Positions 1 to 64,000 of a DNA stretch of 64,000 bases are shown piece after piece. The DNA comes from Xylographa opegraphella (taxonomy: Eukaryota), in assembly GCA_022813865.1 (NCBI GenBank), contig JALDZX010000043.1, positions 1 through 64,000 on the forward strand. Reading direction: 5' to 3'. Numbering within the stretch: the stretch's first letter is position 1; each line of letters starts with the position of its first letter. The translations under genes and the position numbers were made by a program. The notes beneath the pieces are model-generated. The model saw only the letters and a list, made by a program, of their open reading frames with translations, did no database searches and was not told the origin of the DNA.

Positions 1-62
1 AACCCTAACCCTAACCCTAACCCTAACCCTAACCCTAACCCTAACCCTAACCCTAACCCTAA
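1..62. repeat. Telomeric repeat array (CCCTAA)n = TTAGGG on the minus strand; chromosome left end
   Basis: About 10 perfect AACCCT units from base 1, ending abruptly at 62. Confidence 0.99.
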
Positions 63-641
63 GTCCAGAATCCCAAAGGGCAAAAACTCAAAAAAAGAAG
101 GAGAAAGGACCTCGAAGGGATCGCTAGTAGAGGCCACGCCCCTACGTTCTTCATCTTTTTCCAGAGCCTTAATATTAAACATTTTTCGTTGAAACATTTC
201 GCGACCCTCGGCCTTAAGGTCCATGAGTCGACATTTCTTAGCTGCCAGTTTAGCAGCCTCTCGAGCCACCAGCTTAGCAGCTTCGACCTTCGACGTCTCA
301 AGCCTGGTCTCAAGCCTGGCTAGTTTAGCAGCCTCTTGAGTAACCAGCGCAGCAGTCTCGACTTTTGACGCTTCAAGTCTGGCTTCAAGCTTAATAATCT
401 TTTTACGAAAACGACGTTTGTTTTCTTTTAATGCCCTTCTGTCGGCATCGGTAACAATTAACGAACAACGTGCTTTCACTTCAACATATTTTGCGCAGAA
501 GTCAGAGTCTGCAGAGATCTAATACAATTTACCCTCCTTGACACAGCGATCGCAGGGATGCATTGCGAACTTTCCCTTTTCACGAATATCGATAGATTGA
601 ACCTTTCGGCGATGGGAACTAGATGACTTATATTTAGGCAT
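63..641 (-). pseudogene. Decayed Zn2Cys6-like + coiled-coil ORF, probably an LTR-retroelement accessory ORF, truncated by the telomere
   Basis: Manual translation from ATG 641: MPKYKSSSSHRRKVQSIDIREKGKFAMHPCDRCVKEGKLY*ISADSDFCAKYVEVKARCSLIV...KLEARLEASKVE...GILD, then telomeric LG repeats. Spacing is C-x2-C-x6-Y-x8-C-x2-Y-x6-C. One in-frame TAG at 519-521. Absent from the ORF track because the frame runs off the window end. Confidence 0.75.
247..390. repeat. Degenerate direct repeat, period 75 bp (25 codons), inside the subtelomeric ORF
   Basis: 247-315 agtttagcagcctctcgagccaccagc...ctcaagc versus 322-390 agtttagcagcctcttgagtaaccagc...ttcaagc. Confidence 0.9.
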
Positions 642-883
642 AATAAAGGGAAGCTGCTGGAATTCTTTCGGAGCAAGAATCTGGCGGGGGGAGCTAGTAA
701 TAAGGTTCTAACCTATACTGTATAGAACAGGGGTTGGATGAACTTTAGTCCGATGCCTCCGTTGCCTCAGTGGCCTCGAGTCGCCAAGACATGAGAGGCA
801 TGGGAGGCATGGGAGGTAACCTCGAACAGGACTTCTATATAGAGTGGAGGATTCCCTTTGTTATGGAAGGCGTGTTCAACTCA

Positions 884-1045
884 TGTTATGATCTTAGGAT
901 AATAGACTTCAATACAAACACCCTGTACGAAGACTATTACTCTTGGAGAACTATTAGACTGCTACTATGCCTTCCTATTTACTCATTGACGAATCCAACC
1001 CAGATCCCTAATCGAACTATACTAGTGAGAAGAAGGATCGTAACA
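884..1045. mobile_element. LTR-like unit (~162 bp) of a Ty3/gypsy-type retroelement, degenerate
   Basis: Starts TGTTATGATCTT and ends AGGATCGTAACA (reverse complement TGTTACGATCCT): TG...CA termini with a 12-bp imperfect inverted repeat differing only by C/T. Interior is TpA-rich. Confidence 0.6.
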
Positions 1046-1099
1046 TTCAATTATATTATATAACAATTAATATTTTTACCTTTTATCATATTTACATCG

Positions 1100-3796
1100 T
1101 TATTGCTGCATTCGCATCGAGGCCATGGATCGGAAATTTGGACTCTGGGAAGTTCTACTGCTTTTTCTTGCCTCGACAGGGGGTCGACTTCGACTGGTTC
1201 TTCGCGGACCGTCTGCCTGGCTACCGCGACGACTGAAGCTCAAACGTTCCTCGACCTGGCTCTTCCTTCGCTGTTTGACGTGATCGGGGACCATTCGTCT
1301 CATATACCGGTCAAGGCTCTCACACAGTCGATCCAGCACCCACTCGCTTTCGCTCTCGTCGGCCATCATCGGACTGTCCTCCCCGATCCAGTCCCACTCG
1401 ATCAGACCCTCTTCTTGCTCTTCCTCCTCGACTCCCGCTTTCTGGGCCCCGGGATTGAATTGACTGAACCTGATCAAGCGACTGAACTCAACCCATTCCT
1501 CGTAGGAGTAAGGTTGCTTATCCCCGCGACTCAATTCATCGGCCGTGCGACGGATCGCAACCGCCAGCTTCCGAGCAAGATCGTGCTCGTCAAGGTCGTC
1601 GTCTGTGGCCAGCTGCTCGATAGTAGGCTTCAGGTTGAGGTCAGGATCTTCCGCAGGTCCTGGAAACCCGCCCTTGATCCGTTTCTTCTCAGCACGTCTC
1701 AGAAGCCATTTATCCACATAATGCATGGCAACAACGTGCTTGTCAAGAAATGCGCGGAACTTTCCCTCCTGAGGTAACACCGTCCAATCAGCCAAGGCGA
1801 AGGTCCTCCGTTTATAGCTTGCAATGACAGTATCTCCCATATCGGAAATCAATATCGTCATAGTGGGAACAGCGACGAGAGACCATACAATGAAAAAGGG
1901 CTTCCCAGCATTGGATTTAGGGGCGAGATCTCCGTATCCGATTGTCAACAGCGAGACATAACAGAAGTATAGAGCTTCAAAATAGCTCAACCCTTGTTCA
2001 CTTTGCTCCACGCGCCAGAAAACAACAGCTCCAACACACCATAGCAACCCGACTGGGAACGGTCAGTAGACTGTCAGAAGAACTCGAGAAGTAGGGGAGC
2101 CTACATGCAATGACAGACATGGTCAACGCGAAATACTGCTTGAAGTGTTTGGTACTACGCTGGATGGCTCGCATTGCGTCGAAACGGTCTTTCTCTTCGC
2201 GAAGGATGAGGAGCTTCGTTCTTTGCGTCCGCACTCTCCTCAGTCGTTGTATGGGCATAGTTATGGAACGCCGGCTCATGAAACTGGACGATTTAGAAAT
2301 TGCTGACATCGGACTTTTGAGGGGGCTTAAAGGGCTCTTGAGATTCTTCCACGTTTTTTGGCGATCGGGCGAGCCTCCCCTTTCCAAGTCAATATCCGGG
2401 TCAAATGCAATAGTGCGCTTTTGAGGATCAAAGGGTGCAGATATCGATGGTCGCGGACCTTTCTTTTGTTTATGCTTTTTCAATTGTTCCTCTGACTGAT
2501 ATTTCTGCGCAGCTTCGAATGAGTTGGTGACTGCGCGGTCGAATGTACGTGCTCGTTTCGTCTCTACGTGGTGTTTGATGACTTTGTTGTGGCCGAGTTC
2601 TTGCGCAAATTTCCGGATACTGGTAACCATCAAACCCAGGATAATGATACCACCGACCGAGTAAGGAAAGACGAGCCCTCTTCCCGCATCGTTTGGAGCA
2701 TAAAAGTCTCCGAATCCAACGGTGAGAACGGTGACGTCTGCAAAGTAAAGAGCATCAACATAAGACCATCCGCAAAGCTTGGAAAACACGCCTGCTCCAC
2801 CTGCGAGCCAGAAAAAAAACATCATGGTTTGGAGGATAAGATTCCGTTGTTCGTCAGTCAAATCAAAGTGCTGCGGATAGTGTCCAAGAAAATAACCCAG
2901 CATATTGACCATCAGCATCATAGAAGCGATGAGATACAGGGTGGCAGCAATAACGGCGTGCCAGAAGCCTTGAGAATAGGTTTGAAGTGGTTGTACCGGG
3001 GGCACAAATTTATCCATCGAGATCGTTATTCCCATCAGCTAAGTGGGACATCGTTAGGAGGCTTTCCAATATGATATGGCAGCGCGCTGTAGCCTAGTAG
3101 ACTCACAATTCCAGTAGCGAAATACCACAATATAATGGTCATCGGTAAGGCTACGATATACCGTATCCGTCTCGTGAAATTGAAGAGTAGGAAGACATTG
3201 CCAATGAAGCCGCAAAACAAAGAGGCTGCGTTGAGCGCGATACACCTAGCGACAGTCAACAACAGGAATTCCAAGATGCAGGGACCACAGCTACCAGTGG
3301 GGATCGGCGTAGCCAATCGAAGCGTCGTCAATCCCTGGGTAGTCAGTGTCATAATTGTTCCTCCACGAAGTAATCAGAGCAGCAATGGACAAGACATTCG
3401 CCAGAGGACCAATAGTAGCCGCAAGGAGCGGTATCGCGGTTGAGGCAAACCACCAGTCCCTGACATCGTGAGAAAGGTCAGCTCCTGTGCTCTTTCGCCG
3501 TTGCTACGATGTTATGCTTACTGCTCTTCATCGTCATCTGCACCCCGCATATGGAACTTCCAGAATTCTCGGACATATGTATGCGAACGTTCGAGAGGGA
3601 TCGAGGCCTCGTCATCTTCTCCATCATCGACATGGCCAGTCATATCATTATTCTGACTGTCACGCTCAATCTTGTCCTGCAAGATCGGTGCTTTGCTCAA
3701 TCCCTCTACATTATCGTCCTTATCACTTTCGAACGTTCTTCGTAGAGACTCCCTCGCGGTCGTGGCACTGTCCGGAGGAGTCCCGGAACCGTCCAT
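1100..3796 (-). CDS. TOK1: TOK1-type two-pore outward-rectifying K+ channel (spliced)
   Basis: Two pore loops, LTVGFGD and LTIGYGD. The exon after intron 3460-3521 reads DWWFASTAIPLLAATIGPLANVLSIAAL. Many TM segments. GT-AG introns join the ORF pieces. Confidence 0.93.
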
Positions 3797-11662: not shown

Positions 11663-14286
11663 TCAAGCGAGGTAGCCTAATTCGTCAGACTCTAAACGTT
11701 CAAGGTACTCCTTCTCGATAAGTTGGTCAATGGACTTTTTGATGTCGGATATTTTGGGCGTGAAGCGTGATTTGATCTGGTTGATGGTCTCCTGAACGAG
11801 CTGGACGTGCTTCATCTTCTTCCGCGATTTCATAATACGCACAATAGCAGACTGGCGCAGGGGCATATGGTCAGTATAAATGGATAATAAGGAAATTCAC
11901 GAGTCGCTAAAGAATGTACACTGACCTGCATCAGAAGCTTGCGATCCTCCTCGATGGTCTTGTGCGTATCCTCAATTTCTTGCTTCTGCTCCGACTTGAT
12001 CGCGATGTTTAGATTGACCTTGACTTTCTTGTTCTTGAAGCCATAATTCAATTTGTACCTCGTGCCATGCTCTGGCTTTGCGTTCTCGGGCTCCGGGAGG
12101 ATGACCTTTGCCTTGACCATGACGCCGATTGAGGGGTCGAGATGTTCCGCGGAAAGAGCGGTGGCTTTCTCCATATCGTCGTAGGACACCCAGTCCGCGT
12201 CGTTGAAGAGAAGGAGGATACCCATCTGGTAAGTTGAGACTTGGAACGTGTACGGTATTTTTCCGTTGAAGAGAGCGAAATTGACCTTCATTTCCCCTTT
12301 GCACAGCTGCCATAGCCACGTCAGCTTGCGGCCGCTGTGCTTTTCAAAGTAGAATTTCTGAAATCGTTCATAAGTTTTCACGATATCCTGAGGAGGAATA
12401 AATGCTGTTGCTGGAGGTTGCAGCGGCCAGAAGCCAGTACCCAAAACGTAATACGATGGATCCACGGCCTTCTTCAAGTCCTCTTCATCCAGGACTTTCG
12501 ATTGCCAGTCCTTGTAGTTGCTGTTGAGATCTTTGGAAATTTGTATGTCTTGGAACATACGTTGCAGTTTGTTGGTGTATTCGAATCCGCAAGCTTCCTT
12601 CAGCTTCCCAATCATGCTTGTCTCGGCTTCATCGGAAGCGGAGCTTGCATGGACCAAACGTTTAGCAAGCATTCGCGAATAGAATTTCTGGAACACATCC
12701 TTGTCCTCGATGTACTTGAATATTGTCATGATCTGAACAAGCTTGTTCTCCAAGTCCGACTCTTCCGGGCTCTTTGCACTCTTTTTCAACAAGGTGTCCG
12801 TATACTTAGCAAGGAGTTCAGGCGATCGTGTGGACCCTGTCTTGCAGACCTTGTTTCGGTTGACAAACTCCTTACAGGCATTGTCGAGCGACCGCACAAA
12901 TTCTGACTCTCCCGCAAAAGCCTTGTCGACTAGTTTCTGGTACTGCGAGTGAACCTCCAAAAGCGCATCGACATAGATCTTGGGCTCCAGGGCATCCTCC
13001 TCCGCAGCCACTCTATCAACCGCACTCAAACCAGCCTTTCTTACGTGTGCTTCGAACTTTGTGCGCAGTGGCTCGAGACCTCCAGAAATGCGGGCCAGTA
13101 GTTTGTACATGCGTTCCAAATCCAGCTGGCGATCATTATCGAGCAGAACCTGAAACTCGTCCCGGAGTAGAATAGAATGTGCAGTAACAAGCACCTCCAA
13201 GCATGTCTTCATCAATGGGTTCATTATATCCGGATGCAGGTACATTCCGACTCGCTCTTTCTCCTGATCGAGTCGATCTTCGGCCTTCTTCATATATTCA
13301 ACCACACTGTTTTCCGCCACAAATTGTTTCGACTCTTGTTGGTAGAACGCATTTGTAGCTGCCAAAAATGGTCGCTCGAAGTAGTACCGATATACATCCA
13401 GCGTGGATTTCGTACTGTCGGTTTCGTCGAGGCCCAGCGACACGAAGGAGTCGACGATGCTCTTGATCTGCGCTTGTTCTATTGTCTCTCCGTTCCGTTG
13501 CTTCTCGACCATTTTCAATACCGACGTCATGACGTTGGTGTGGATATTCATAAAGAGCTGTTCCCTCCACTCCACAAGATGCAGTGTGTACACATCGTAG
13601 ATATCCTTCTTTCCCTCATCAATCTCTCGCTTGACCCAGTGACGATTGAGATAGCGGAAAAGATGGTTGATGTATTTGGCCGCCGTTGTGTACCTATTCC
13701 ATTCGCGAATGTAGAAGCTCAGTAGTGCCTCATCAGTGTGTCCCTTAGATTGCTCGTGAATGAGGTTAAGGTGGGATTTGAGATAATTTTTGAGATTTCG
13801 ATAGAGATCTTCACCGAGGAGATGTGCTTCGATAAAAGTCAGTACGTCTTGAACAGACTTAACGGATATGAGTACCACCTCCTCGATTCGTATGAGCGCC
13901 TATAATCCCACCCGTTGTCACTGCTTTTTGTGAGGTACAGAAATTGTGCACGGCTCTGTAGAGATATGATCAGCTATGGGAATGACCGCAGACCAGCGAC
14001 AGCAATACGTATATATCCCCATGTACTAGAAAGAACGATTAGCCCTGACCAAGGTTGGGTTCTACACCGGCAACTCACGGTCTCCATGTTGACACCTTCT
14101 CGAAGACGCCCCATTATCAAATCCACCCCCGTCTCAAGATAATTCCACCTACATCATGCGTAGAACCATCAGTCACGTTTCCAAACTGGTTATAGATCTC
14201 AGGCGAGATATGAGTAGAGCTCGATCAAGCACTTACGTTCCCGCGAGATCATCCTTGCTCGGGGCAGGAGGCATCGTGATAGTCAT
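11663..14286 (-). CDS. CUL1: Cullin-1 (SCF scaffold, Cdc53/CulA)
   Basis: LFRYLNRHWVKRE, PELLAKYTD, FKYIEDKDVFQKFY, GRKLTWLW, neddylation region AIVRIMKSRK, LIEKEYLER. 5' exons from ATG 14286 include a 17-nt exon (14009-14025). Confidence 0.96.
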
Positions 14287-52964: not shown

Positions 52965-55900
52965 CTAGATCTCGCACAACAACGCCTTTCGGATCTCCTC
53001 ACCCAAGCGCTGGACCTATCGAGCATGTTAGCACGCGTCATTCCATTATTTCCTACCCACACCAGACTATGCTCTACTTACATTCGGCGCCTTCATCATG
53101 GTGAAATGGTTACCCTCCACATGGGAGCACACTACATTCCCCTTCCCGACCATGGCATCCCAAAGATTCGGGCCAAAATCTGTTCGATTCTCTAACAGCC
53201 ATTGGGCATGCCCGTAGGGATACGGCTCCGGACGCGGGTCATTCGGTAGCTTGCAGACGCCGTCCTCGCACCAGATAGCAAAAGTCTTAGGAGCCTTGGC
53301 GGCGTCGATCTGGCGGGCGGAGTAGGTGGAAAGAGCGTTGATGGATGACTGGAAGTGAGGCAGCAACCAAGGTGGAATCTTCTTGGCGCCGGAGTCGGGA
53401 TCACCGAGCAGGCCGATCTCGTTGAACCACTTGTGTAGGGAAATAGGGAGGGGCTCGATAATGAGCGGGCAAGGAGCGTCGATCAGCACGAGCCGCTCGA
53501 CGCAGTCGCCCGCGCGGATGAGCTGCTGCGCAGACTCGAAGGCGATGACGCCGCCAGCGGACCATCCCTAGTGGAGCATTAGTTGTTTGATCATGTGTAC
53601 AAATGTAAGACATCGAGAGGGCAGAAGAGAACACTTACGCCGACAATGTACGGGCCCTGGGGCTGGCGTCGCTTGATCTCTTTGATGAAGTGCTCCGCCA
53701 TGCCCGGCACGCCACAAACATACTCCTCCGGCGTCTTCATGTACGGGGAGTTGAGACCAAAGACACAAACGTCCGGTGATATATTCGGGATCCCCACGTA
53801 GGAGGTCGCCGATCCGCCTCCATCCGGCACAAGGAAGAAGTTCTTCGTCGCCGTCTTTGGGTTCCCTTGCAGAATGACGGAGGATGCGAATCGCGGCTTG
53901 GGAGGGAGCATAAGAGCCGGGATTTCCTTGATACCCACATTCATGGCCACCTTCTCGGAAATGTTGTCCACCTCGATCGGCATTCCGTGAGACGCTGCTG
54001 TCTCCAACGCTCGGACAACTTCTGCGTGTGCGTAAGTATCTTTGTGTCCTAGCGGAGAGTCTGGGGTCTCGGGAGATGAGCCAGGAGTTTTCGAGGAAGA
54101 TCCTCTGCTACCGACCTGGTCGGAATCGAATTCGGACGACCTCGGAGAACTATTTTCCGATATGTCGCTGTCGTCTGACAGGGGCTCCAGTGTGGAAAGA
54201 TATCCCTTAAGCGATCCGATGGTGGGATAGTCTGTAAAGAGAGTAGAGTGCACATCTAGCTCCAGGTCTTCGCGCATTCTGCCGCTGATGGCAAGCTGCA
54301 TCAAAGAATCACACCCCATATCTGCCAGACTGTTGCCGTCCGCTAGTTCGCTCATGTCGACTCCACACTCATCGGCGATGATCTCCATAACGGAGATCGT
54401 GACCGATTTCGAAAGAGAGACCTTCTGCTCAACTTTCAGAGTGACTGTGGACGTGGGAGTTTTCTCCGTGGTGACCGCCATGGTAGACATCTCGACCTGC
54501 TGTTTAGCCGGAGATGGGCGTTGAGGAATACCTCCTGCTGGCGGAAGAAGCGTATCCAGAACTCGGCGAGGAATGCATTGGAACAAGACTCCACCGAACA
54601 ATCCGACTATCTTGTTTCCATCGAGGAGGTACACGTCCCCAGCGACCATCTTACCCTCGGCCGGAAGCATCCGCACGTATGTTCGATACTCCTTTCCGGG
54701 CACCATGGCCTCCGCGAAACGCATCGATTGCCAACCGTGCGACACATACACCTGCGTCTTTGCGTCAAGGGTGTCATTGGCATTCATGATGAAACCCGAT
54801 AGGTGACCAACGCTGTCAATCCAGTATGGTGCGCAGGCGAAGTTCTGTCCTTCCTTGACCGGCTGAGGAACAATCTGAGCGGAAGCCTCCAGATTCTTGG
54901 CGTCCATTACGATTCTCTGCATTCCTCGGAATGTCTCCTCGTAATCCACGAACGAAGCAAAAAGCTTGTAAGCCATTCCTTGGAGAAGGACATGTGCTTT
55001 ACTTTCTTGGGCCTGCTGTTGCAATGCCTCCACGCGACCTTCGACCAGATGTGCAGCTCGCGACCATTCGGAAAGCCAAGCAGCCTTATCACCATACTCG
55101 ACTACACATTTGCAGTGTTCTGTGGTTCCGGTGGTGAAATAAATATCGATGCGATTCCGGCTCTTGTCAGCACTTGCCGTGATCTTCAAGATTTGAGGAG
55201 CGCCAGGTTTCGCAATCAATGACCTCGGGACCTCGACATCTCGGACATTGATGCCAGGTACAGGCGCATCAGCTGGTAGATCGCCCATCTTCCGGTACAT
55301 GTGCTCGGCAATAGTAAAACCGATATCACCATAAATAGATGACGGACACAGTGCAGCACCATTGACCAAGTGCCCCGAAACAACGGCATAAAGGTCAGGA
55401 CGGTTGATGTCCGACTCGGCCACAAGCGTTCCTTTGCCGTTAGCATACTCCTCATGGACGATCTTCTGCACTGTAGTCGTGGAGAGGCTTGGAATGGGTG
55501 CGGCAATTGTCTTCAAGGCTGGAGCATCACCTTTGGTGAGGCACCAGTTATTCACATACTGAAGCCAGTAGTTCTTGAGAGCAAAGCTGTATGCTGGAAG
55601 TTCAAGAAGCTCATGAGCGTCAGTGAAGTCCCTGTGGTATTCGTTCCAATCAACGTTTACGCCCTTGTTATGCAGCAGACTTGCGGTTGATGCAAGGGAA
55701 GTCCAGACAGGCTCGTTTCGGCGGAATGAAGGGCCTGCGGATATTGATGTACCGAGAGTCGCTTTCACAAAGCCGAGACAGACTGGATGGGGGCCAATTT
55801 CGACAACGACTGTCTTCTCGCCGACGAGATTTGCTTCTCGTCCAGCTGAAAGTGCTCCTACGAAGTTCACCGCTTCGCGTGCGTGTCTGCACAGATATTT

Positions 55901-58900
55901 AGCATTGATTTCACCTCCTGTCAATGTCCTGCTGAGCAGAGGAGACAGTAATGGGGTAGATGGAATGTTAAATGTGATTGTCGAAGCGATGCGTTCGAAA
56001 TCCCCCATGATTGCTTCGACTTGGGAGGAATGAAAAGCATATGGCACATTCAGCTTTGTTGCTTTCAGACCCCGCTCGTCTAGAGCAGCTTTGGCTATCT
56101 CGATATCGGATGTTTGACCGCTGAGAACGGTTTCGGCTGCACTGTTGACGCAAGCGATTTCGATCTTTCCATCTTTGAGAATGTCCGCTAGAGCAGAAAC
56201 ACCTGCCTTAACAGCCAACATAGCGTGAGAACCGGCAGTGCAATGAGTCTCGAGGAGTCGTGCTCGCTCTCCAACCAGGTAAATGGTGTCACTGATCGAT
56301 AGGACACCGGCAGCATTAAGAGCGGCATACTCGCCTAAGCTGTGCCCTATGACCACATCTGGCTTGACTCCCCATGCAGCCCAGAGGCGACTCAGGGCCA
56401 TCTGAATACATGTCAACCCCACTTGAACCAATGTCGGCGTTAGCGATGAGACGTCGTCTACTTCTCCGATGATGAGTGGTAAGAAACTGGGGAAACCCAG
56501 AGATTTCGCGATTGAATCGAATTCGATTATATCTGTTTTGAACTGCTTGGAAGTTTCGAAGAGTTTGGCACCGAGAGCTGCATAATGAGAGCCTTGACCT
56601 GTAAAGGTGAAGGCTACCGTCGGAGCTAATGATGTTGGTTCAATGTCTGCTTCAGCAGCCTTTGCAAGAGCGACCTTCAATTGAGGAATATCTGCTACCA
56701 CAACAGAAATTCGATAATTATGATGTATTCGCCGAGCAGTAGTTGTATAGGATAAACTAGGTAACGACACATCTGGAGACTCCTGAAGATACCCAACGAG
56801 ATTTTGGAGGTTGCCTTTGAGAGAGGACAACGCACGAGCAGAAGTCGACACCACATGGACTGGGCGAGCATCTCCGCCGATAATTCTCTTGAGCGGAGCA
56901 TCCTCGATGAGGGTTGCGGTATTCCCTCCAGCTGCACTAAAGTTGTTCACAAATATGCGGCGAGGAGTAGATCTCGCCTCCAAAGCTGTTGGCTTGAACA
57001 CGATATGAACGTTTCGTTCCGCAAAATCTTTTGGAAATCCTTTGTTCATCTCCTTCTTGATACCGACATGGGGTGGAATGGTATTATGCCGAAGCATCAG
57101 CAAAGATTTTATAAGGGCTGAGACTCCTGAAACAGCTTCTCCATGACCAATATTTGCCTTCACCGAGCCAAGATAAAGCTTCTGATCTGCCCGTCGCTTG
57201 CGATGAGCCGGAGCAAAAACGTTGGTAACGGACTTCATCTCTGTTCCATCTCCGGCCTGTGTGCCAGTACCGTGCATCTCTACGACGCTGACATCCAATG
57301 GGTCAACACCGGCCTGGTCAAGGACTTTCTTATACAGAATCTCCTGTGTCTTCCCGTGAGGATGAGTGATGGATATCGCATCGGCAGAGTGGTTTGTGGC
57401 TGACGAAAGAATAACTCCGAGGATATTGTCATGATCGGCCTCAGCGTCTTCCATTCTTTTAAGAATCACTGTGCCGATGCCGTCTCCGCGACAGTAGCCA
57501 TCTGCATCGTTGTCGAAGGTCTGACATGGGCCGACTTTGCCGAGGAACTGCCCCTTACTGAGGCCAGAAAAGATATCAGGGTTGGTCATTACGTTGGTGC
57601 CTCCGGCCACAGCAGTATCACAGTCGCCCGCCCATAAAGAGGTGCATGCCAATTGGATTGCTGCCATACTGGACGAACATGCAGTGTCGACACTGAAGCT
57701 AGGACCACTGAACTTGAAGTGATAGTTGATCCGACCCTTAGGAAATTAGCTCATGTATCCTGTCATACAAGCTCAAGCAGTGATGATTACCGGACCGAAA
57801 GCTCTCACGCCTCCAGTGATGAAATACGTATCAATATCCTGCGCCTCGTTGATTTCACGCCAGTCGTCACTCGTTTGGCCATAAAATGTTCCAATTCGGT
57901 CCAGATGAGTCGATGGAGTCCGGTTGGGGACGTAGCCTGACATCTCGAGAGCTTCGAAGGCCGTGAGCAAGGCGAGCCGCTGCATCGGATCGGTCTGCGC
58001 CGCTTCTCTGGGCGACATATTGAAGAATCGAGGATCGAATAGTCCGGCGTTGTCGATAAAACATCCGAAGGGAGTATGGCTAGTATTCTTACCTTTTCCT
58101 GTAGGATCAAAGTGAGCTTGAGCATCAAATCGATCGGGTGGGACCTGAACGAGACACTGGTTAACTCGAGGCTTTTTTCCAACAAATTGGCAGCACCAAC
58201 CTCTTTGTGCATGTCAAGGCCCTTCATCAGGACTTCCCAAAGTCCTTCAACGTCTGCTCCACCCGGGAATCTACCGGACATACCAACAATAGCGATCTTA
58301 CTGCTCCGAAGACTGCCTGCGCCAAGATGGCCAGATGGCGACTGTCCTAATTGACGATCGAGAAGCGAGATTGTTGACTTCGTTCTAGTCTGAAGAGCAG
58401 AGACTACCGTGCTTGCAGCGTTGGTGGGTCCAATTGGGACCACTCTGCCTTCCCCCTCGACAGTGGACATCCTCGACACGCATTCTTGAAGGATCAATTC
58501 GAAATCGATAGGCTTGACAAGGATGTCAGCTACCACCTCCTCAAGTAATCCTATCATGGTGGTCGCAGCGTATTTGATTCCATTCGATGCTGATAGGATG
58601 GCGACCCGCGGCTTAGCCGAGGCAAGGCATGCCCCAGTGCATTCATCGACTGTGGAAAGTATGTCGGCGATAGTAGCGTCGTCGTGCAGGTGAGAAGCAT
58701 GATATGGTCCCACAATATGGGTTTTGAGAAAACGCGAGTTCTTGAAACAGTCCGACGTATCAAACAATTTGCGCAGCGTCTCGGGAGGACCACTGACTGT
58801 AACGCCGGAGGGACTGACCGCGCTGATGTAAGCATGCTTCAGTGTAGGAATCGACTATAGCACTGGTCAGTCAATTCATCACAATAGGGGAAAATAGAGC

Positions 58901-59527
58901 AGGGTCTGACAGTCTCAGAGTGGAAGTTTTCCAAAGCATTTCTGGCAACTACGTTTGTTATACCAGACACGATGAGAGACCAGCTCTCCGCGCCGTCTCC
59001 CCTCGTCCGCAGTCTATCAGCAACAGAGTCCACATGAACACCAATACGGAAGGCGATGCGGACGGTCGCCACAGCAAGTGGAATGAATGATGCGGGAGAA
59101 GAAAAGGTAGATGCCGCGCAGGCAGCTAGAAGGCCCGTACACAGTCCGATCATACACTTTTCTCCAGACAGCAGATTGGGGCATTCCTCGGCCAAGCTTG
59201 AAAAATATGTTCAGTTGCGGTCAAATCAACCAATGGAGCTGCTTACCCGATGAAATGCGCCAGTTGAGCAATACACAGCAAGGCATTCTCTATGGGCGCG
59301 GCCCTCCGTTGAGCTCTGTGGTATATCTCTAGGAACTCCAAAAGATTGTTCATAGGGGGGATATGCTGCCGTTGGAGTCGAGGCAGTTTGGAAATGTCAG
59401 CACGGAGAGCTGTGGTAACATGGTTCAGGAAGGATGTGACCAGGGTCGTATGCTCCCGCTGGAAAAATATCCGATGTAGAAAAGGGTATACATCGACGGC
59501 TTGATCGCCAAACAAGAGAACGTCCAT
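52965..59527 (-). CDS. Non-reducing iterative type I PKS, SAT-KS-AT-PT-ACP-TE
   Basis: SAT LFGDQ/GLCTG; KS DTACSSS, EMHGTGT, NIGHGE; AT GHSLGEY; PT GHLVNG...[14 protein letters not shown]; one ACP GCDSL; TE GWSAGG (after an intron) and GNHFTMM; last exon [16 protein letters not shown]. Confidence 0.96.
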
Positions 59528-61315
59528 TTTTCGAACGGGATGGACAACTCGCTGTCGACGATTCCAGCCTGGTGACAATGGTGCAAAGTGGTATCAGCGA
59601 AAGACGTCTCGGTATATCCTATATACCACGTCTACCCGTCCTCGGGCGAGAGGGAGCATCTCTAGAACTCGTGAAGTCAGTACATTTGATAGCGTGCTCT
59701 CTATCGAGAGGCAGAGACTCGGAGCGGCAATACAGTCAGCCACTGGTGCAATCCTCTATCGAGCTGAATGGAAGCTGCAGGTCTCGGGGAACCGATATCT
59801 CGGTAACCACGAAGGTCCTTATTCGGGGACCTAGATCTCACTTGCTGCCTTTCAATCTCAAGACTTTTCCCGACGACCGCAACACGCGTGAGACGCATGG
59901 AACACACCCGGAACGTGGACGCGGTATCGTCAGTACGTTCTGACGTTCTGCAGGGTCCCACATCCCGACTGGATATATCTTCCCGTAAACGGACGACGAG
60001 CACACAGTTGTTCCGAAGAGTCCTCGCAATGAAACATCAAGACTACAAGTATTGTCCGCTGATGTCATCAAATTCATCCTCGGTGACTTCTTGCAGTCGT
60101 TTCCCTCGGTGCGAGCCATGTACGGGCATTGGGCAAGAGAAGCACAGACGGACGATGAAAGCCTCGCTCACAGCTCATCATCATGCACGTCCCTCCGTAC
60201 ACTCAGACGGATCCCATCAGAGGACCCCGATCGAGGTGGATCTCTATCTTGGACGCTAAAACACATATTCCTGCTCCGTGAACACCGACAAAGTCGATAT
60301 GCGAGGGTAGCTGTCAAGGCCGCAATGGCCACCATGATGCCGTCGCCGCCGCACAGGAACATTCCAGAGCAATGCGGGCCTGCTGGAGGACTCGTACGCA
60401 TCACTACCACGACCACGTACCGGCACTGTGTTACCAGACCAGCTCTCTGCTACAGAGAAGAGGTAAGGAAGCTGTGGCTCAGTGCCCAACATCACCGGAG
60501 ATAGTCCCGATGCGCAGCCCGGCGCAGAGCCCCATCTCGATTGCCACACCATAAGACCATTACCGTTCGGCACACGGCCATGTCTTGGTCGGTAGAAGAC
60601 CGGGTCCGATGATCGTAGATATCGTGCCAAAGCCGGGGCTCAGACGCGAAGCGGCATCTTTCTGCGCCGTTGGATGACGCTGTCAGGGGTGAAGGAAACC
60701 CGCCGGCTAAGGAGGGCCCGGTGATTAGGTCATTAGACCCACCTGTTGTCGCAGATGGTGGCGGGCGCGTTAGCTGGGTCTGCGCTCTAGGTTTAGTGGG
60801 CCCCATCGCCTAAGCATAGCTCGGTCCGCTGGGAGGCTACTTCGGGGATGTCAACTAAAATCAGCCTACTTTGTGGTGTATCGTACTCCGCAGGCGTGGG
60901 GACAGTGGCGTTGAGGAACGAGCTCTTTTTTATTTTTCTTGGTGTCTACTATTGAGGAAAGTACTACAAGCGGATATTCATAGTAGCAGTTTCCAAGGGA
61001 CGGGACGACAAGTATAGGATTTTGGCACTCTGCGAGAATTCTGCTCGTGAGATATCGTCTAATGGCCATCGCGCGCGAGCGCTGTTCGACGGGGCTGTTT
61101 CTCCCGTAATACATACGTAATCTTCTACGTGCCCCCAACGCCCGCCTGGTGGCTAGCCGTGTATCTATCGCTTGCAATGCCTGCCCACCCATCGACTGTA
61201 TTCCCCCCCCCTAACCTATACCCCTTCTCTCACAACTAAACAAAGACGCCTTTATGAACCCCACAAGACCCAGCAGCACATACACAGACACAGCGAGAGC
61301 CCGGCTTGGGCGCAA

Positions 61316-62656
61316 CTAAGCGGCCGAGGGGCCCTCGCGGTCCTGATCCAGCGCGACGGTGGCCAGCTTCAGCCGCGCGCCCAGGCTGACGGTGAGGGAG
61401 GTGCAGGTGAGGCGCTCGTAGTCGGGCTGGAGGCGCTGACCGGCGAGCTTCAGCTGCGCAAGGACGGCCTCCATCTTCTTGATGCCGATCAGGGCGACTT
61501 CGCGCTTCAGGCGGCGCTCGTCTTCGAGTTCCATCTGGCGCGGGTGGGGGGCGGTGGTGCTGGTGGTGCTGGTGCTGGTTGTGGTTGTGTTGCTAGGGCT
61601 GGTGCTGCTGCTAGTGCTGTTGTTGTTGGTGGTGCTGCTGCTGCCTTGGGGATCGCGGTCCGGGGCGAGCAGGAGGAGGTCCTTGGCGTCCGGCACGGTG
61701 ACCCAGGCTTCGGTGAGGGAGAGGACTTTGCGCAGCAGGGCGGCGAGGACGATGAAGGCGTCGATGCTGCTGTCCTCGGCCTTGCAGGAGGGGCAGCGCA
61801 GCATGGTGGCGCAGCACGAGGTGGCGTCCTCGTTCATGTCGAGCACGATGGCGTAGTTGAGCGTGGGCAGGTCGGACGAGGGCCCGGACTGCGCTTGTGG
61901 GAAGCTTTGGTGCAGGTTCTGTAGCATCTGGAGCATGATCACCAGGCAGGAGCAGGGCATCGGCTGCTGCTGCTGCTGCGCCGGGAGTGGTGGCTGCGGT
62001 TGCTGGTGCTTGTCGGTTGACGACGACGGGGCCATGCTGGAGGGGAAGGCGGGCGGGAGGTGGTGGTGGTGGTGGCGGTGGTGGTGTTCGGCGGAGGAGG
62101 AGGACAGGCTGGGCGGCGGCCAGATGGAGGAGAGGCTGGAGGAGGAGGAGTGCGTGGTCGGGGTCGAGGGGCTGCTGAACTGGCGGAAGGGGGTCAGCGG
62201 GCTTATGGTTATAGGGTCGTAGGCGGCCCAGATGTCATGATCGTGCTGCGACTGCTGCCAGCAGCTGCTGCTGGCGCCGTCAGCCGCGGTCGTTTCACCA
62301 GTGGGGAAGTGTGTCATGGCCGAGGCAGCAGACGCGTCGGGGAGAAAGGCGTCGAAGATGGAGTGGGACGACGCGGCTGCTGGAGGTAGGTGCTGCTGGT
62401 GGCGGTGGTGATGCTGGTGATGCTGGTGGTCCTGGTGTTGCTGTTGCTGCTGCTGCTGCTCGGCGCCGTTGAGCGTGACCCGGACGCCCATCTTCTCGCC
62501 GTTCTTCCAACGTCCGCCGCGGTTGGAGATCCCGTAGTCGCACGCCGCTCCGGAGGCCAGGCAGCGACTGCAGATCGGGGACTTCCGGTTACACCGGACC
62601 TTGGCCTTGCGGCAGGGGTCGCATGTTTGACGGAGCTTTTGCTTTTCGACGGGCAT
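61316..62656 (-). CDS. AflR-type Zn(II)2Cys6 pathway transcription factor
   Basis: LRQTCDPCRKAKVRCNRKSPICSRCLASGAACDYGISNRGGR; C-terminal CSCL...CCATMLRCPSC region; poly-Q/H/S/T linkers; single exon. Confidence 0.88.
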   Translation of the reverse strand: MPVEKQKLRQTCDPCRKAKVRCNRKSPICSRCLASGAACDYGISNRGGRWKNGEKMGVRVTLNGAEQQQQQQQHQDHQHHQHHHRHQQHLPPAAASSHSIFDAFLPDASAASAMTHFPTGETTAADGASSSCWQQSQHDHDIWAAYDPITISPLTPFRQFSSPSTPTTHSSSSSLSSIWPPPSLSSSSAEHHHRHHHHHLPPAFPSSMAPSSSTDKHQQPQPPLPAQQQQQPMPCSCLVIMLQMLQNLHQSFPQAQSGPSSDLPTLNYAIVLDMNEDATSCCATMLRCPSCKAEDSSIDAFIVLAALLRKVLSLTEAWVTVPDAKDLLLLAPDRDPQGSSSTTNNNSTSSSTSPSNTTTTSTSTTSTTAPHPRQMELEDERRLKREVALIGIKKMEAVLAQLKLAGQRLQPDYERLTCTSLTVSLGARLKLATVALDQDREGPSAA

Positions 62657-64000
62657 GGCCTCTTTTCACTCCGTCACTGTGATCTTCGGCGAAAGGGAGG
62701 AAGGGGGGATGGGGGGTGAGAACTGAAGAGGCGCTGGTCAGAGCTTTTCGTTCTCGTGGTCGTTGTCCGAGAGTCCGTAAACGAGGGGGCAGAAAGGAAA
62801 GGACCGACAGGAAGGTGAGGGTGGATCCGACGGACTTATCATCCAGAGTGGCCCGGCCGCTGTGGTCGTGGTTTGAGCGATGTCGACCTCATTATTAGGG
62901 ATGTAGGTTCACCAGTGCGTGGTATGGATCTACCTATGGATAGGTCCATTCTGCACGACCTTGCGAGATGGTGCAGGGCTGGCGATGCTAGCCTGGGTCT
63001 TGAAGTCATGCAGTTCCTGTCCAGATACAGTTTCCAAGGGATGGTGCTGTAGGACGAATCGATTTGGCGAGCGAGAAAGTTCTTCTTAGGCGGCATTCGT
63101 TTGCTCAGCAGAGATATCTGGAAGAGCCCGGCAAAGTAAGGACGGTCCACGTCACGCCACCCAACGAGAGCCAGTCCAGTGCGGTATGAAACAGCCGTAT
63201 TCACAGCTGCCATTGGCTCCCACCGACTGATCCGCATTGGAGTGGAGAGCTTCTTAGGCTGGGGCCGAGAGGGAGCTTTCGATCAGTTCCCACAGCGGAA
63301 GTGAGGGACCTGTCCCTGGGCGAGTTGCTTAGCTCGGCGGATAAGGAAGTGGCTACCAAGTATAGAATCAAAATAGAGTACGAAGGTTCGCATGACGGCT
63401 ACGGTAAAGCATACCGGTGACAGAGGCAGCGTCCGGAGATGAAGCAAAGTTGCTTTTCATGACGCGACACGATTCGACAGTACGGGCTGCAGCGGCAATA
63501 TGATGACTGAGATCGCAAGGATAACCGCTGTAACAAACGATAAGGGACATGCCAGAAAAGAAGCATCACACATTGCGTCAACGACGGCCTCCCTCATGCA
63601 GCAAACCGTTCGCCGAAAGTATGAAAAGCTTCCACTCAGAGATCCGAGAAGGCCGCTTCTTTCGCTATCCAGCCAAAGTTCAGGTGCTCGCGTCTCGAAG
63701 CCTCACACCGCCACTACGGAGCGGTGCCACGTCGATCATCGGTCCATGCGCTCCAGCCTGGGGCTGAGGACGAGGTGGAGGTTGCAGTCCTGGTCGGAGG
63801 CATTTCCGCATCTCCTTCTCGTCGGGGCTCGACAGCAGTCGGAAGTCGCACCGAAAGCAAACCCCGACTGCCGGCCTTTATCCAGAGATCTGTATCCAAA
63901 CGACACTCCCACTCGCACCTTTTACTGGCCGACGCCCGATGGGCAGAGGTGCTGTGTCACGACGTGGACGTGGACGTTGCACGAATCATAAGCCGGCATT

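What the first reader, a model, noticed from the sequence alone, without database searches (positions are those of the whole stretch)
1..641. Telomere attached inside a decayed Zn2Cys6-like ORF; the frame reads into the TTAGGG array
Seen: a minus-strand frame from ATG 641 has only one stop (TAG 519-521). It then stays open up to the telomere (...GGG ATT CTG GAC TTA GGG TTA GGG), with no spacer or degenerate repeats at the junction. It has exact binuclear-cluster spacing, but Cys3 and Cys5 are TAT. Those two changes and the TAG each fit a CpA->TpA change, the usual RIP signature. From memory, short Zn-cluster-like/coiled-coil ORFs occur near the LTRs of fungal gypsy elements. Inference: this end arose by breakage inside a RIP-inactivated retroelement followed by de novo telomere addition.
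Basis: partly seen in the sequence, partly recalled or inferred. Interest (0 to 1): 0.72.

Follow-up and report, generated by a model that had tools for sequence, protein, structure and literature searches.

The report
Telomere capping a truncated fungal retrotransposon
A fungal chromosome ends inside the broken tail of a dead jumping gene, a known kind of chromosome healing, and the damaged reading frame at the tip is that jumping gene's own backwards-facing accessory gene, whose intact relatives encode a small zinc-cluster-like protein of untested function.

Summary
Observation confirmed. Bases 63-1045 are the last 983 bp of a plus-strand Ty3/gypsy chromovirus: pol tail, polypurine tract and 3' LTR (698-1045). 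Telomere repeats are joined directly at 62/63, and single-copy genes start right after the LTR. The minus-strand frame is the element's antisense accessory gene, placed like brtn of Botrytis Boty elements. All six Cys codons alternate Cys/Tyr among 22 genomic copies and are nearly invariant in 18 homologues from other genomes. An intact, unrelated chromovirus carries the gene at the same place. The frame running into the telomere means nothing: 2 of 3 frames are open there, and the stop at codon 41 precedes it. Best reading: truncation healed by telomerase (about 0.78). No read data bridge the junction, and the order of RIP and breakage is not shown. The TAG may not be a RIP product. The protein is Zn2Cys6-like but lacks the Gal4 DNA-contacting lysine (0 of 18); a model suggests an antiparallel dimer. 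Healing inside transposons is known from Magnaporthe, and this scan noted the antisense gene before in at least 6 other genomes.

The parts
1..62 (+). Telomere array (CCCTAA)n at the contig start, 10.3 perfect copies
   Evidence: the three other telomeric contig ends carry arrays of about the same length
62..63 (.). Telomere/retroelement junction, no spacer; possible 0-2 nt seed
   Evidence: 4 of 8 informative copies, including the two nearest, continue with TT where the array begins with TT; 4 continue with CT
63..641 (-). Antisense accessory ORF of the chromovirus (brtn-like position), dead: stop at codon 41, two Cys codons read Tyr, last ~15 codons lost at the junction
465..554 (-). Six-cysteine (Zn2Cys6-like) module, codons 30-59
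   Evidence: the homologue model's head superposes on Gal4 8-41 at rmsd 1.9 A over 34 residues, Z 2.1
519..521 (-). Premature TAG (codon 41)
   Evidence: copies have Glu 9, Thr 4, Gln 3, other 6 of 22
244..393 (.). 75-bp tandem duplication inside the coiled-coil region, not seen in the other aligned copies
   Evidence: 14 transitions and 2 transversions between the units
65..127 (+). Last ~20 codons of pol downstream of the chromodomain, overlapping the tail of the antisense ORF
   Evidence: read by eye against the pol-frame translation of full-length copy L058
683..697 (+). Polypurine tract
   Evidence: present before this LTR start and before other 3' LTRs, absent before 5'/solo LTRs
698..1045 (+). 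3' LTR, 348 bp; starts TA where many copies start TG; ends CA
   Evidence: shared right boundary in about two dozen copies, 44 LTR starts in the assembly, very high summed depth in run X1
1046..1050 (+). Right half of the presumed 5-bp target-site duplication; partner not found
1100..3038 (-). Single-copy two-pore K+ channel gene (TOK1-like, name recalled), first host gene, about 1 kb from the telomere
   Evidence: Ion_trans_2 in two frames; single-copy depth

Best explanation
A Ty3/gypsy chromovirus inserted just beside a K+ channel gene with its 3' LTR facing the gene (shown). The chromosome was later cut or eroded at a point inside the element, in the short overlap between the end of pol and the end of the antisense gene. 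About 5.4 kb of the element and everything beyond were lost from this end (shown by comparison with full-length copies). Telomerase added repeats directly on the free end, perhaps using a 1-2 nt seed (inferred). Whether this was fission at an internal insertion or erosion of an older repeat-rich end cannot be told; I lean to erosion. The ORF is the element's own antisense accessory gene, with its ATG 57 bp from the LTR edge, so probably driven from the 3' LTR (inferred). Intact relatives encode a basic helix, a Zn2Cys6-derived head without the Gal4 recognition lysine, a ~70-residue helix and an acidic/aromatic tail (shown by alignment and model). My committed guess for its function is a nuclear trans-acting regulator of the element (about 0.45; inferred, untested). 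This copy is dead, and its run into the telomere is a by-product.
For: Element anatomy: (full-length copies of ~6.4 kb with two LTRs; gag, RT, RNase H, integrase, SH3 and chromodomain on the strand opposite the ORF). The homology ends at the array while copies continue for 15 more codons. None of the 3 other assembled telomeres shares the block. Bases 64-676 lie on one contig at single-copy depth (141 against 163 for the flank), and none of the 10 listed loose ends continues there into element sequence (17 not shown). Precedent: 19 of 24 de novo telomeres in Magnaporthe grew from 1-4 nt seeds, and telomeres sit on truncated transposons there (PMC7367193 passages). ORF family: 19 homologues, Cys columns 17-18 of 18, same position in an intact, unrelated element L097 (probability 99.5%, E 1.2e-22). 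Model pLDDT 85. 16 of the 19 listed Foldseek rows, including the top 12, are Zn2Cys6-type proteins (family assignments partly recalled). Homodimer score 0.45 against best control 0.00, contacts agree in at least 92%, pLDDT at least 81; the mark was reached by 21 of 30 solved homodimers and 0 of 23 monomers, in eukaryotes 17 of 29.
Against: No laid contig bridges 62/63: the longest record starts at 64, so the junction rests on the assembly alone. The assembly is a 241-contig draft with only 4 telomeres, so most ends cannot be compared. The seed is not certain, as the T in the nearest copies could itself be a RIP product. No reciprocal half with the matching target site was found. The fold evidence is weak in absolute terms: Foldseek E at least 0.31, Z 2-3; Pfam Zn_clus is below its cut-off in all 19 homologues. 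Only 1 homologue outside this genome was seen in DNA context. The dimer pass may reflect the model's memory of coiled coils.
Confidence: 0.78

Rival explanations
1. Assembly artefact: the contig was joined to the telomere loop of the assembly graph, and the element really continues.
For: Short-read-type draft (241 contigs); the Logan contig starts at 64 and does not enter the array; the first two bases after the array are the same at this end and at C219.
Against: No internal array of 3 or more units exists in the assembly that could seed a false join. All four arrays are contig-terminal and about 60 bp long, each with its own junction. 64-676 is unique, at single-copy depth. Telomere-bearing contigs may be filtered out by the tool as human-like.
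Confidence: 0.08
2. The block is a fixed subtelomeric element shared by chromosome ends and spread by recombination or break-induced replication.
For: Only 4 ends are assembled; shared subtelomeres would collapse and be missing. Some copies lie near contig ends.
Against: 0 of 3 other assembled ends carry it; the nearest copies are only 71-83% identical; depth over 64-676 is single-copy.
Confidence: 0.04
3. Chromosome fission specifically: the break hit an internal insertion in gene-rich DNA, and the other half survives as a separate chromosome end.
For: Housekeeping-type genes (SWIRM/Myb, PI4-kinase, cullin) lie within 14 kb, and no further copy of the tested repeats was found in 1046-64000.
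Against: The three other ends are equally abrupt, so this may be the lineage's normal end structure; no 5' LTR with the matching target site (a weak negative in a draft).
Confidence: 0.3
4. The ORF is a host Zn2Cys6 transcription factor gene, or a working gene that uses the telomere as coding sequence.
For: Six-Cys spacing; one homologue cluster holds a Bipolaris maydis protein labelled Zn(2)-C6 domain.
Against: 45 tblastn-type matches in this genome, with the inspected ones in repeat DNA; fixed place between chromodomain and polypurine tract; the stop at codon 41 lies upstream of the telomeric part.
Confidence: 0.02

Closest known systems
De novo telomere addition on truncated transposons and rDNA in Magnaporthe (Pyricularia) oryzae (PMC7367193, PMC8381367, PMC1635262; passages read)
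   Same: Telomere repeats joined directly to a truncated element or to unique DNA, often at a 1-7 nt seed; ends without a subtelomere exist and are stable.
   Different: There the truncated elements are mainly telomere-targeted non-LTR MoTeRs; here it is the 3' end of an ordinary LTR chromovirus, in a lichen-forming fungus, with single-copy genes 1 kb away.
brtn, antisense gene of Boty-like gypsy elements of Botrytis cinerea and Sclerotinia (Zhao et al. 2011, title seen in reference lists only; described in PMC7264820 and PMC8365987)
   Same: Antisense ORF between pol and the 3' LTR of a fungal chromodomain-bearing gypsy element, present in most copies.
   Different: Sequence homology to BRTN was not testable here. 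The 2020 review says that no clear similarity to other proteins is described for such ORFs, whereas this family has a Zn2Cys6-like head and a coiled coil.
Gal4-family Zn2Cys6 transcription factors (Gal4, Ppr1, Put3, Hap1, Pho7)
   Same: Six-Cys spacing, head fold (rmsd 1.9-2.3 A over 33-36 residues), following dimerisation helix, acidic tail.
   Different: The basic recognition residue of the first loop (Gal4 Lys18, recalled) is Gly in 15, Ala in 2 and Asp in 1 of 18; Pfam hits mostly match only the second half of the profile; the modelled dimer is antiparallel rather than parallel; the protein is under 240 aa and element-borne.
Retroviral antisense/accessory proteins (HTLV-1 HBZ recalled; accessory factors discussed in PMC7264820 section 7)
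   Same: Antisense gene next to the 3' LTR encoding a basic region, a dimerisation helix and an activation-like segment.
   Different: Analogy only; no homology was tested and the domain type differs.

Membership tests
Ty3/gypsy chromovirus | Two LTRs with TG...CA ends | tested here: met
   Full-length copies L058 and L059 have two ~362-bp LTRs; the window keeps only the 3' LTR, with TA for TG.
Ty3/gypsy chromovirus | pol order RT, RNase H, integrase | tested here: met
   Pfam on copies L058 and L059 read with X at stops; lost from the window copy.
Ty3/gypsy chromovirus | Chromodomain after integrase | tested here: met
   PF00385 at E 4e-9 and 3.5e-9 in both copies.
Ty3/gypsy chromovirus | Polypurine tract before the 3' LTR; 5-bp target-site duplication | tested here: inconclusive
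   Tract present. The duplication cannot be seen in the truncated copy; L059 shows a matching 5-mer on both sides.
Antisense aORF between pol and 3' LTR (brtn type) | Position and orientation, present in most copies of the family | tested here: met
   same in L097.
Antisense aORF between pol and 3' LTR (brtn type) | Sequence homology to BRTN | not testable with these tools
   Paper not held; no brtn entry in the two supplements searched.
Antisense aORF between pol and 3' LTR (brtn type) | Antisense transcription | not testable with these tools
   No RNA run was listed.
Gal4-type Zn2Cys6 transcription factor | C-x2-C-x6-C-x5-12-C-x2-C-x6-8-C (pattern recalled) | tested here: met
   Met in intact homologues; in the window copy two of six are Tyr.
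Gal4-type Zn2Cys6 transcription factor | Basic residue at the Gal4 Lys18 position that reads CGG (recalled) | tested here: not met
   0 of 18 homologues have K/R/H/Q; Gly 15, Ala 2, Asp 1; the window copy has Gly.
Gal4-type Zn2Cys6 transcription factor | Pfam Zn_clus above the curated cut-off | tested here: not met
   0 of 19 reach 21 bits; 7 of 19 give weaker hits, best 20.5.
Gal4-type Zn2Cys6 transcription factor | Binuclear-cluster fold | tested here: inconclusive
   Top Foldseek rows are Zn2Cys6 proteins but E is at least 0.31; Z 2.1-3.0.
Gal4-type Zn2Cys6 transcription factor | Zinc binding and sequence-specific DNA binding | not testable with these tools
   Needs biochemistry.
De novo telomere (chromosome healing) | Canonical repeats joined directly to sequence that continues elsewhere | tested here: met
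   on the assembly.
De novo telomere (chromosome healing) | Short in-frame seed at the junction | tested here: inconclusive
   TT in 4 of 8 informative copies including the two nearest, CT in 4.
De novo telomere (chromosome healing) | Junction confirmed in reads; ancestral longer end known | tested here: inconclusive
   Only Logan contigs were available; none bridges the junction.
RIP-mutated repeat | Strong excess of C-to-T/G-to-A transitions between copies | tested here: met
   LTR pairs: 82 transitions, 6 transversions.
RIP-mutated repeat | CpA-specific context | tested here: not met
   CA 31, CT 27, CC 19, CG 5 of 82; CA plus CT bias is reported for Botrytis. Window 63-641: TpA/ApT 0.94, (CpA+TpG)/(ApC+GpT) 1.15.

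The most novel reading that the evidence does not exclude
A widespread clade of ascomycete chromoviruses carries its own antisense accessory regulator built from a Zn2Cys6-derived head that has lost CGG recognition and from an antiparallel coiled coil that holds the two heads at opposite ends, a fungal counterpart of retroviral antisense regulators. In addition, this lichen-fungal lineage keeps no true subtelomeres: its chromosome ends are repeatedly reset by breakage in repeats and healing, leaving housekeeping genes 1-2 kb from the tip.
Probability: 0.3. Interest if true: 0.65.

Novelty: new variant of a known kind. Interest (0 to 1): 0.33.

Why it matters
The telomere junction is one more natural case of chromosome healing and matters little alone; it would matter more if abrupt, subtelomere-free ends prove to be the rule in this lineage (4 of 4 assembled ends, a biased sample). 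The antisense gene matters more. The function of antisense ORFs between pol and the 3' LTR is an open question (PMC7264820). A Zn2Cys6-like head with a dimerisation helix and an acidic tail makes that question testable with intact natural homologues. This dead, truncated copy is not the best place to study it.

Tried and rejected
Word-indexed protein search with the window protein: 0 of 507 candidates. PDB sequence search with the homologue profile: one chance row at E 0.18. Wide structural search returned only generic coiled coils, best Z 7.0; the viral library gave nothing at E 0.001 or better. A single-sequence model of the head alone was poor (pLDDT 59) and was not searched. The 18-sequence alignment was too divergent for a DNA scan; a 5-sequence subfamily gave 1 locus from 198 pattern matches. 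Target-site partner: 0 matches. No RNA holder listed. Runs X2 and X3 gave next to no cover. The bacterial promoter scan is irrelevant to this eukaryote. Telomere-targeted insertion was rejected: the array joins internal sequence, not an LTR end. Function of the (Leu-Gly)n read-through was rejected. Literature searches for a described zinc-cluster accessory gene in fungal gypsy elements gave none by titles and abstract starts; subscription journals are not covered, and Zhao 2011 could not be read. PMC6431247 passages held nothing relevant. One search was seen as a listing only. No earlier scan notes exist for this genome or this sequence.

Full report
OBSERVATION. The window is the start of contig C180 of a 24.7-Mb, 241-contig assembly. 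The best named match of its cullin is Xylographa trunciseda, 96% over the first 300 residues, so the host is a lichen-forming ascomycete (class recalled). Bases 1-62 are 10.3 perfect telomere units. The minus-strand frame from ATG 641 has one stop at 519-521 and runs into the array as (Leu-Gly)n. The six-Cys spacing with Tyr at codons 40 and 52 is as described. Two qualifiers apply. The relaxed motif occurs once more elsewhere in the window's six frames, and 2 of 3 frames over the telomere repeat have no stop. So neither the motif alone nor the read-through is beyond chance.

WHAT THE DNA IS. Bases 63-1045 have 48 matches in the genome (40 of 127 candidates scored). About two dozen copies end at the same base, 1045. 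LTR starts map to 698, with a polypurine tract in front in 3' copies only; 44 such starts are in the assembly. Copies L058 and L059 are about 6.4 kb with two LTRs. Read with X at stops, they give gag, RT, RNase H, integrase zinc finger, Tf2-type SH3 and chromodomain on the strand that matches the window's plus strand; the opposite strand gives no Pfam family. The window therefore holds the last 983 bp of a plus-strand chromovirus, and the ORF is antisense, between chromodomain and polypurine tract, its ATG 57 bp from the LTR. In full copies the ORF continues 15 codons past the junction, and the last ~20 codons of pol overlap it at 65-127 (read by eye). Single-copy genes follow at once: K+ channel domains at 1100-3038, SWIRM/Myb, PI4-kinase and cullin within 14 kb. 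No further copy of the fetched repeats lies in 1046-64000.

THE ORF FAMILY. A protein search of the genome gave 45 matches. Among 22 distinct copies from the 29 other loci fetched, each Cys position alternates mainly between Cys and Tyr: codon 40 Cys 8, Tyr 14; codon 52 Cys 8, Tyr 12, other 2. A full HMMER search gave 19 homologues. In the 18-sequence alignment A2 (15 of those hits with the Cys head, P0008, P0003, P0012 and P0017 left out, plus P0021, P0025 and P0026), four Cys columns are invariant and two are 17 of 18. One cluster holds a Bipolaris maydis protein labelled Zn(2)-C6 domain. The atlas returns 30 unnamed Ascomycota clusters at up to 0.95 for a homologue. The one homologue obtained with DNA context, L097, is an intact chromovirus with an intact antisense gene at 395-979 between chromodomain and polypurine tract.

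PROTEIN ANATOMY. A model of homologue P0007 (pLDDT 85) shows a basic helix 10-25, the Cys head, a helix 68-137 and a low-confidence acidic/aromatic tail. Of 19 listed Foldseek rows, 16 including the top 12 are Zn2Cys6-type proteins, but E is at least 0.31. The head fits Gal4 8-41 at rmsd 1.9 A over 34 residues, Z 2.1. Against membership: no homologue reaches Pfam's Zn_clus cut-off (0 of 19; 6 of the 7 weak hits cover only the profile's second half), and the position of Gal4's CGG-reading lysine (recalled) is Gly 15, Ala 2, Asp 1 of 18. A two-copy model scores 0.45 against 0.00 for the best of 3 controls, contacts agreeing in at least 92%, pLDDT at least 81. The mark was reached by 21 of 30 solved homodimers and 0 of 23 monomers (eukaryotes 17 of 29, but 1 of 7 without an older solved relative); zinc rode along, unlike the calibration. 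The contact pairs (85-102, 81-109, 92-92) are antiparallel, unlike the Gal4 dimer as I recall it. A coiled coil may pass from memory. The protein works like a small zinc-cluster regulator in anatomy but is not a canonical Gal4-family member. I put nuclear trans-regulator of the element at about 0.45, a structural, tethering or anti-silencing role at about 0.3; all untested.

RIP. The two LTR pairs differ by 82 transitions and 6 transversions; contexts are CA 31, CT 27, CC 19, CG 5. The family is RIP-damaged, but not in a CpA-only way. The window copy is mildly affected: GC 45% against 20-30% in most loci, TpA/ApT 0.94, substrate index 1.15; in 16 of 16 pairwise comparisons the other copy is the more AT-shifted. 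The Cys/Tyr differences fit RIP. The stop is uncertain: the nearest copies by transversion distance (L024 0.025, L011 0.030; 8 copies compared) have GAG or GAA at codon 41, and only 3 of 22 have Gln. A 983-bp remnant could still be hit after truncation (inference), so the order of RIP and break is open.

THE JUNCTION. Only 4 contigs carry telomere arrays, all terminal and about 60 bp. The other three share nothing with this end and also abut gene-rich DNA; this sample is biased toward ends with unique neighbours. At the junction, 4 of 8 informative copies, including the two nearest, continue with TT, the start of the telomere unit, and 4 with CT (L006 and L015 do not reach the site). A 0-2 nt seed is possible. 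One DNA run holds the stretch, possibly the source sample. Its contigs cover 64-676 at depth 141 against 163 for the unique flank; none bridges the junction, and none of the 10 listed loose ends lies there (17 not shown). The junction is neither confirmed nor contradicted. No 5' LTR with the matching target site was found.

KNOWN. In Magnaporthe, 19 of 24 de novo telomeres grew from 1-4 nt seeds, and 17 of 23 truncated MoTeRs had seeds at their telomere junctions (PMC7367193, passages). Ends on unique DNA without a subtelomere are described (PMC1635262, passages; PMC8381367, passages). [quoted passage not shown] Zhao 2011 was seen by title only, so homology to BRTN is untested. Seven searches found no paper on a zinc-cluster identity (open library only). 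This scan noted the antisense zinc-cluster gene before in at least 6 genomes; two of those notes dispute the motif for their own families. I had reached the arrangement and brtn before that look-up, and those notes are not independent support.

VERDICT. Real feature; two known kinds meet by chance. Chromosome healing inside a truncated chromovirus is the best reading (0.78), and the ORF is a dead copy of an antisense accessory gene. The headline read-through is a by-product. The family's non-canonical zinc-cluster anatomy is the part worth pursuing, in intact homologues. Interest 0.33.

Noticed in passing
L065 (G000:C179) last ~170 bp: This telomere grows out of a tract of about 15 degenerate hexamers that differ from the telomere unit, inside an open frame, with a mitochondrial carrier gene about 600 bp inward. 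It may be healing at a telomere-like microsatellite or a trace of an altered telomerase template.
   Followed up: partly
L064 (G000:C170) 1-630: Telomere, about 385 bp of extremely AT-rich DNA, then a solo LTR of a second family, then a P-type ATPase piece, an Rft-1 gene and a DEAD-box helicase within 6 kb.
   Followed up: partly
L066 (G000:C219) end: Telomere joined directly to unique, GC-rich DNA, TauD gene about 2 kb inward; the two bases next to the array are the same as at this window's junction.
   Followed up: partly
window 698-1045: Summed depth over the LTR in run X1 is hundreds of times the single-copy level; one variant position alone has depth 58,382 against 163, so far more LTR copies exist than the 44 seen in the assembly.
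   Followed up: no
L058, L059 LTR pairs: RIP-like mutation in this genome hits CpA, CpT and CpC and largely spares CpG (5 of 82), so the TpA/ApT index stays near 1 even at 20% GC.
   Followed up: partly
window 53591-62665: A non-reducing-type polyketide synthase (SAT, KS, AT, ACP domains) lies next to a Zn_clus plus AflR-domain regulator gene, about 55-63 kb from the telomere.
   Followed up: no
L097 (metagenome contig) 395-979: An intact chromovirus with open pol and an intact 194-codon antisense six-Cys gene whose stop lies close to the end of pol.
   Followed up: yes
homologue P0007, residues 116-127: The family's conserved E-x2-N-I-x-E-L-E motif lies in the modelled dimer interface; the antiparallel geometry suggests it packs on the partner's Cys head.
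   Followed up: partly
window 11833-13899: The cullin-1 best named match is Xylographa trunciseda (96% over the first 300 residues), then Trapelia and Ptychographa, which places the host among lichen-forming Lecanoromycetes (class recalled).
   Followed up: yes
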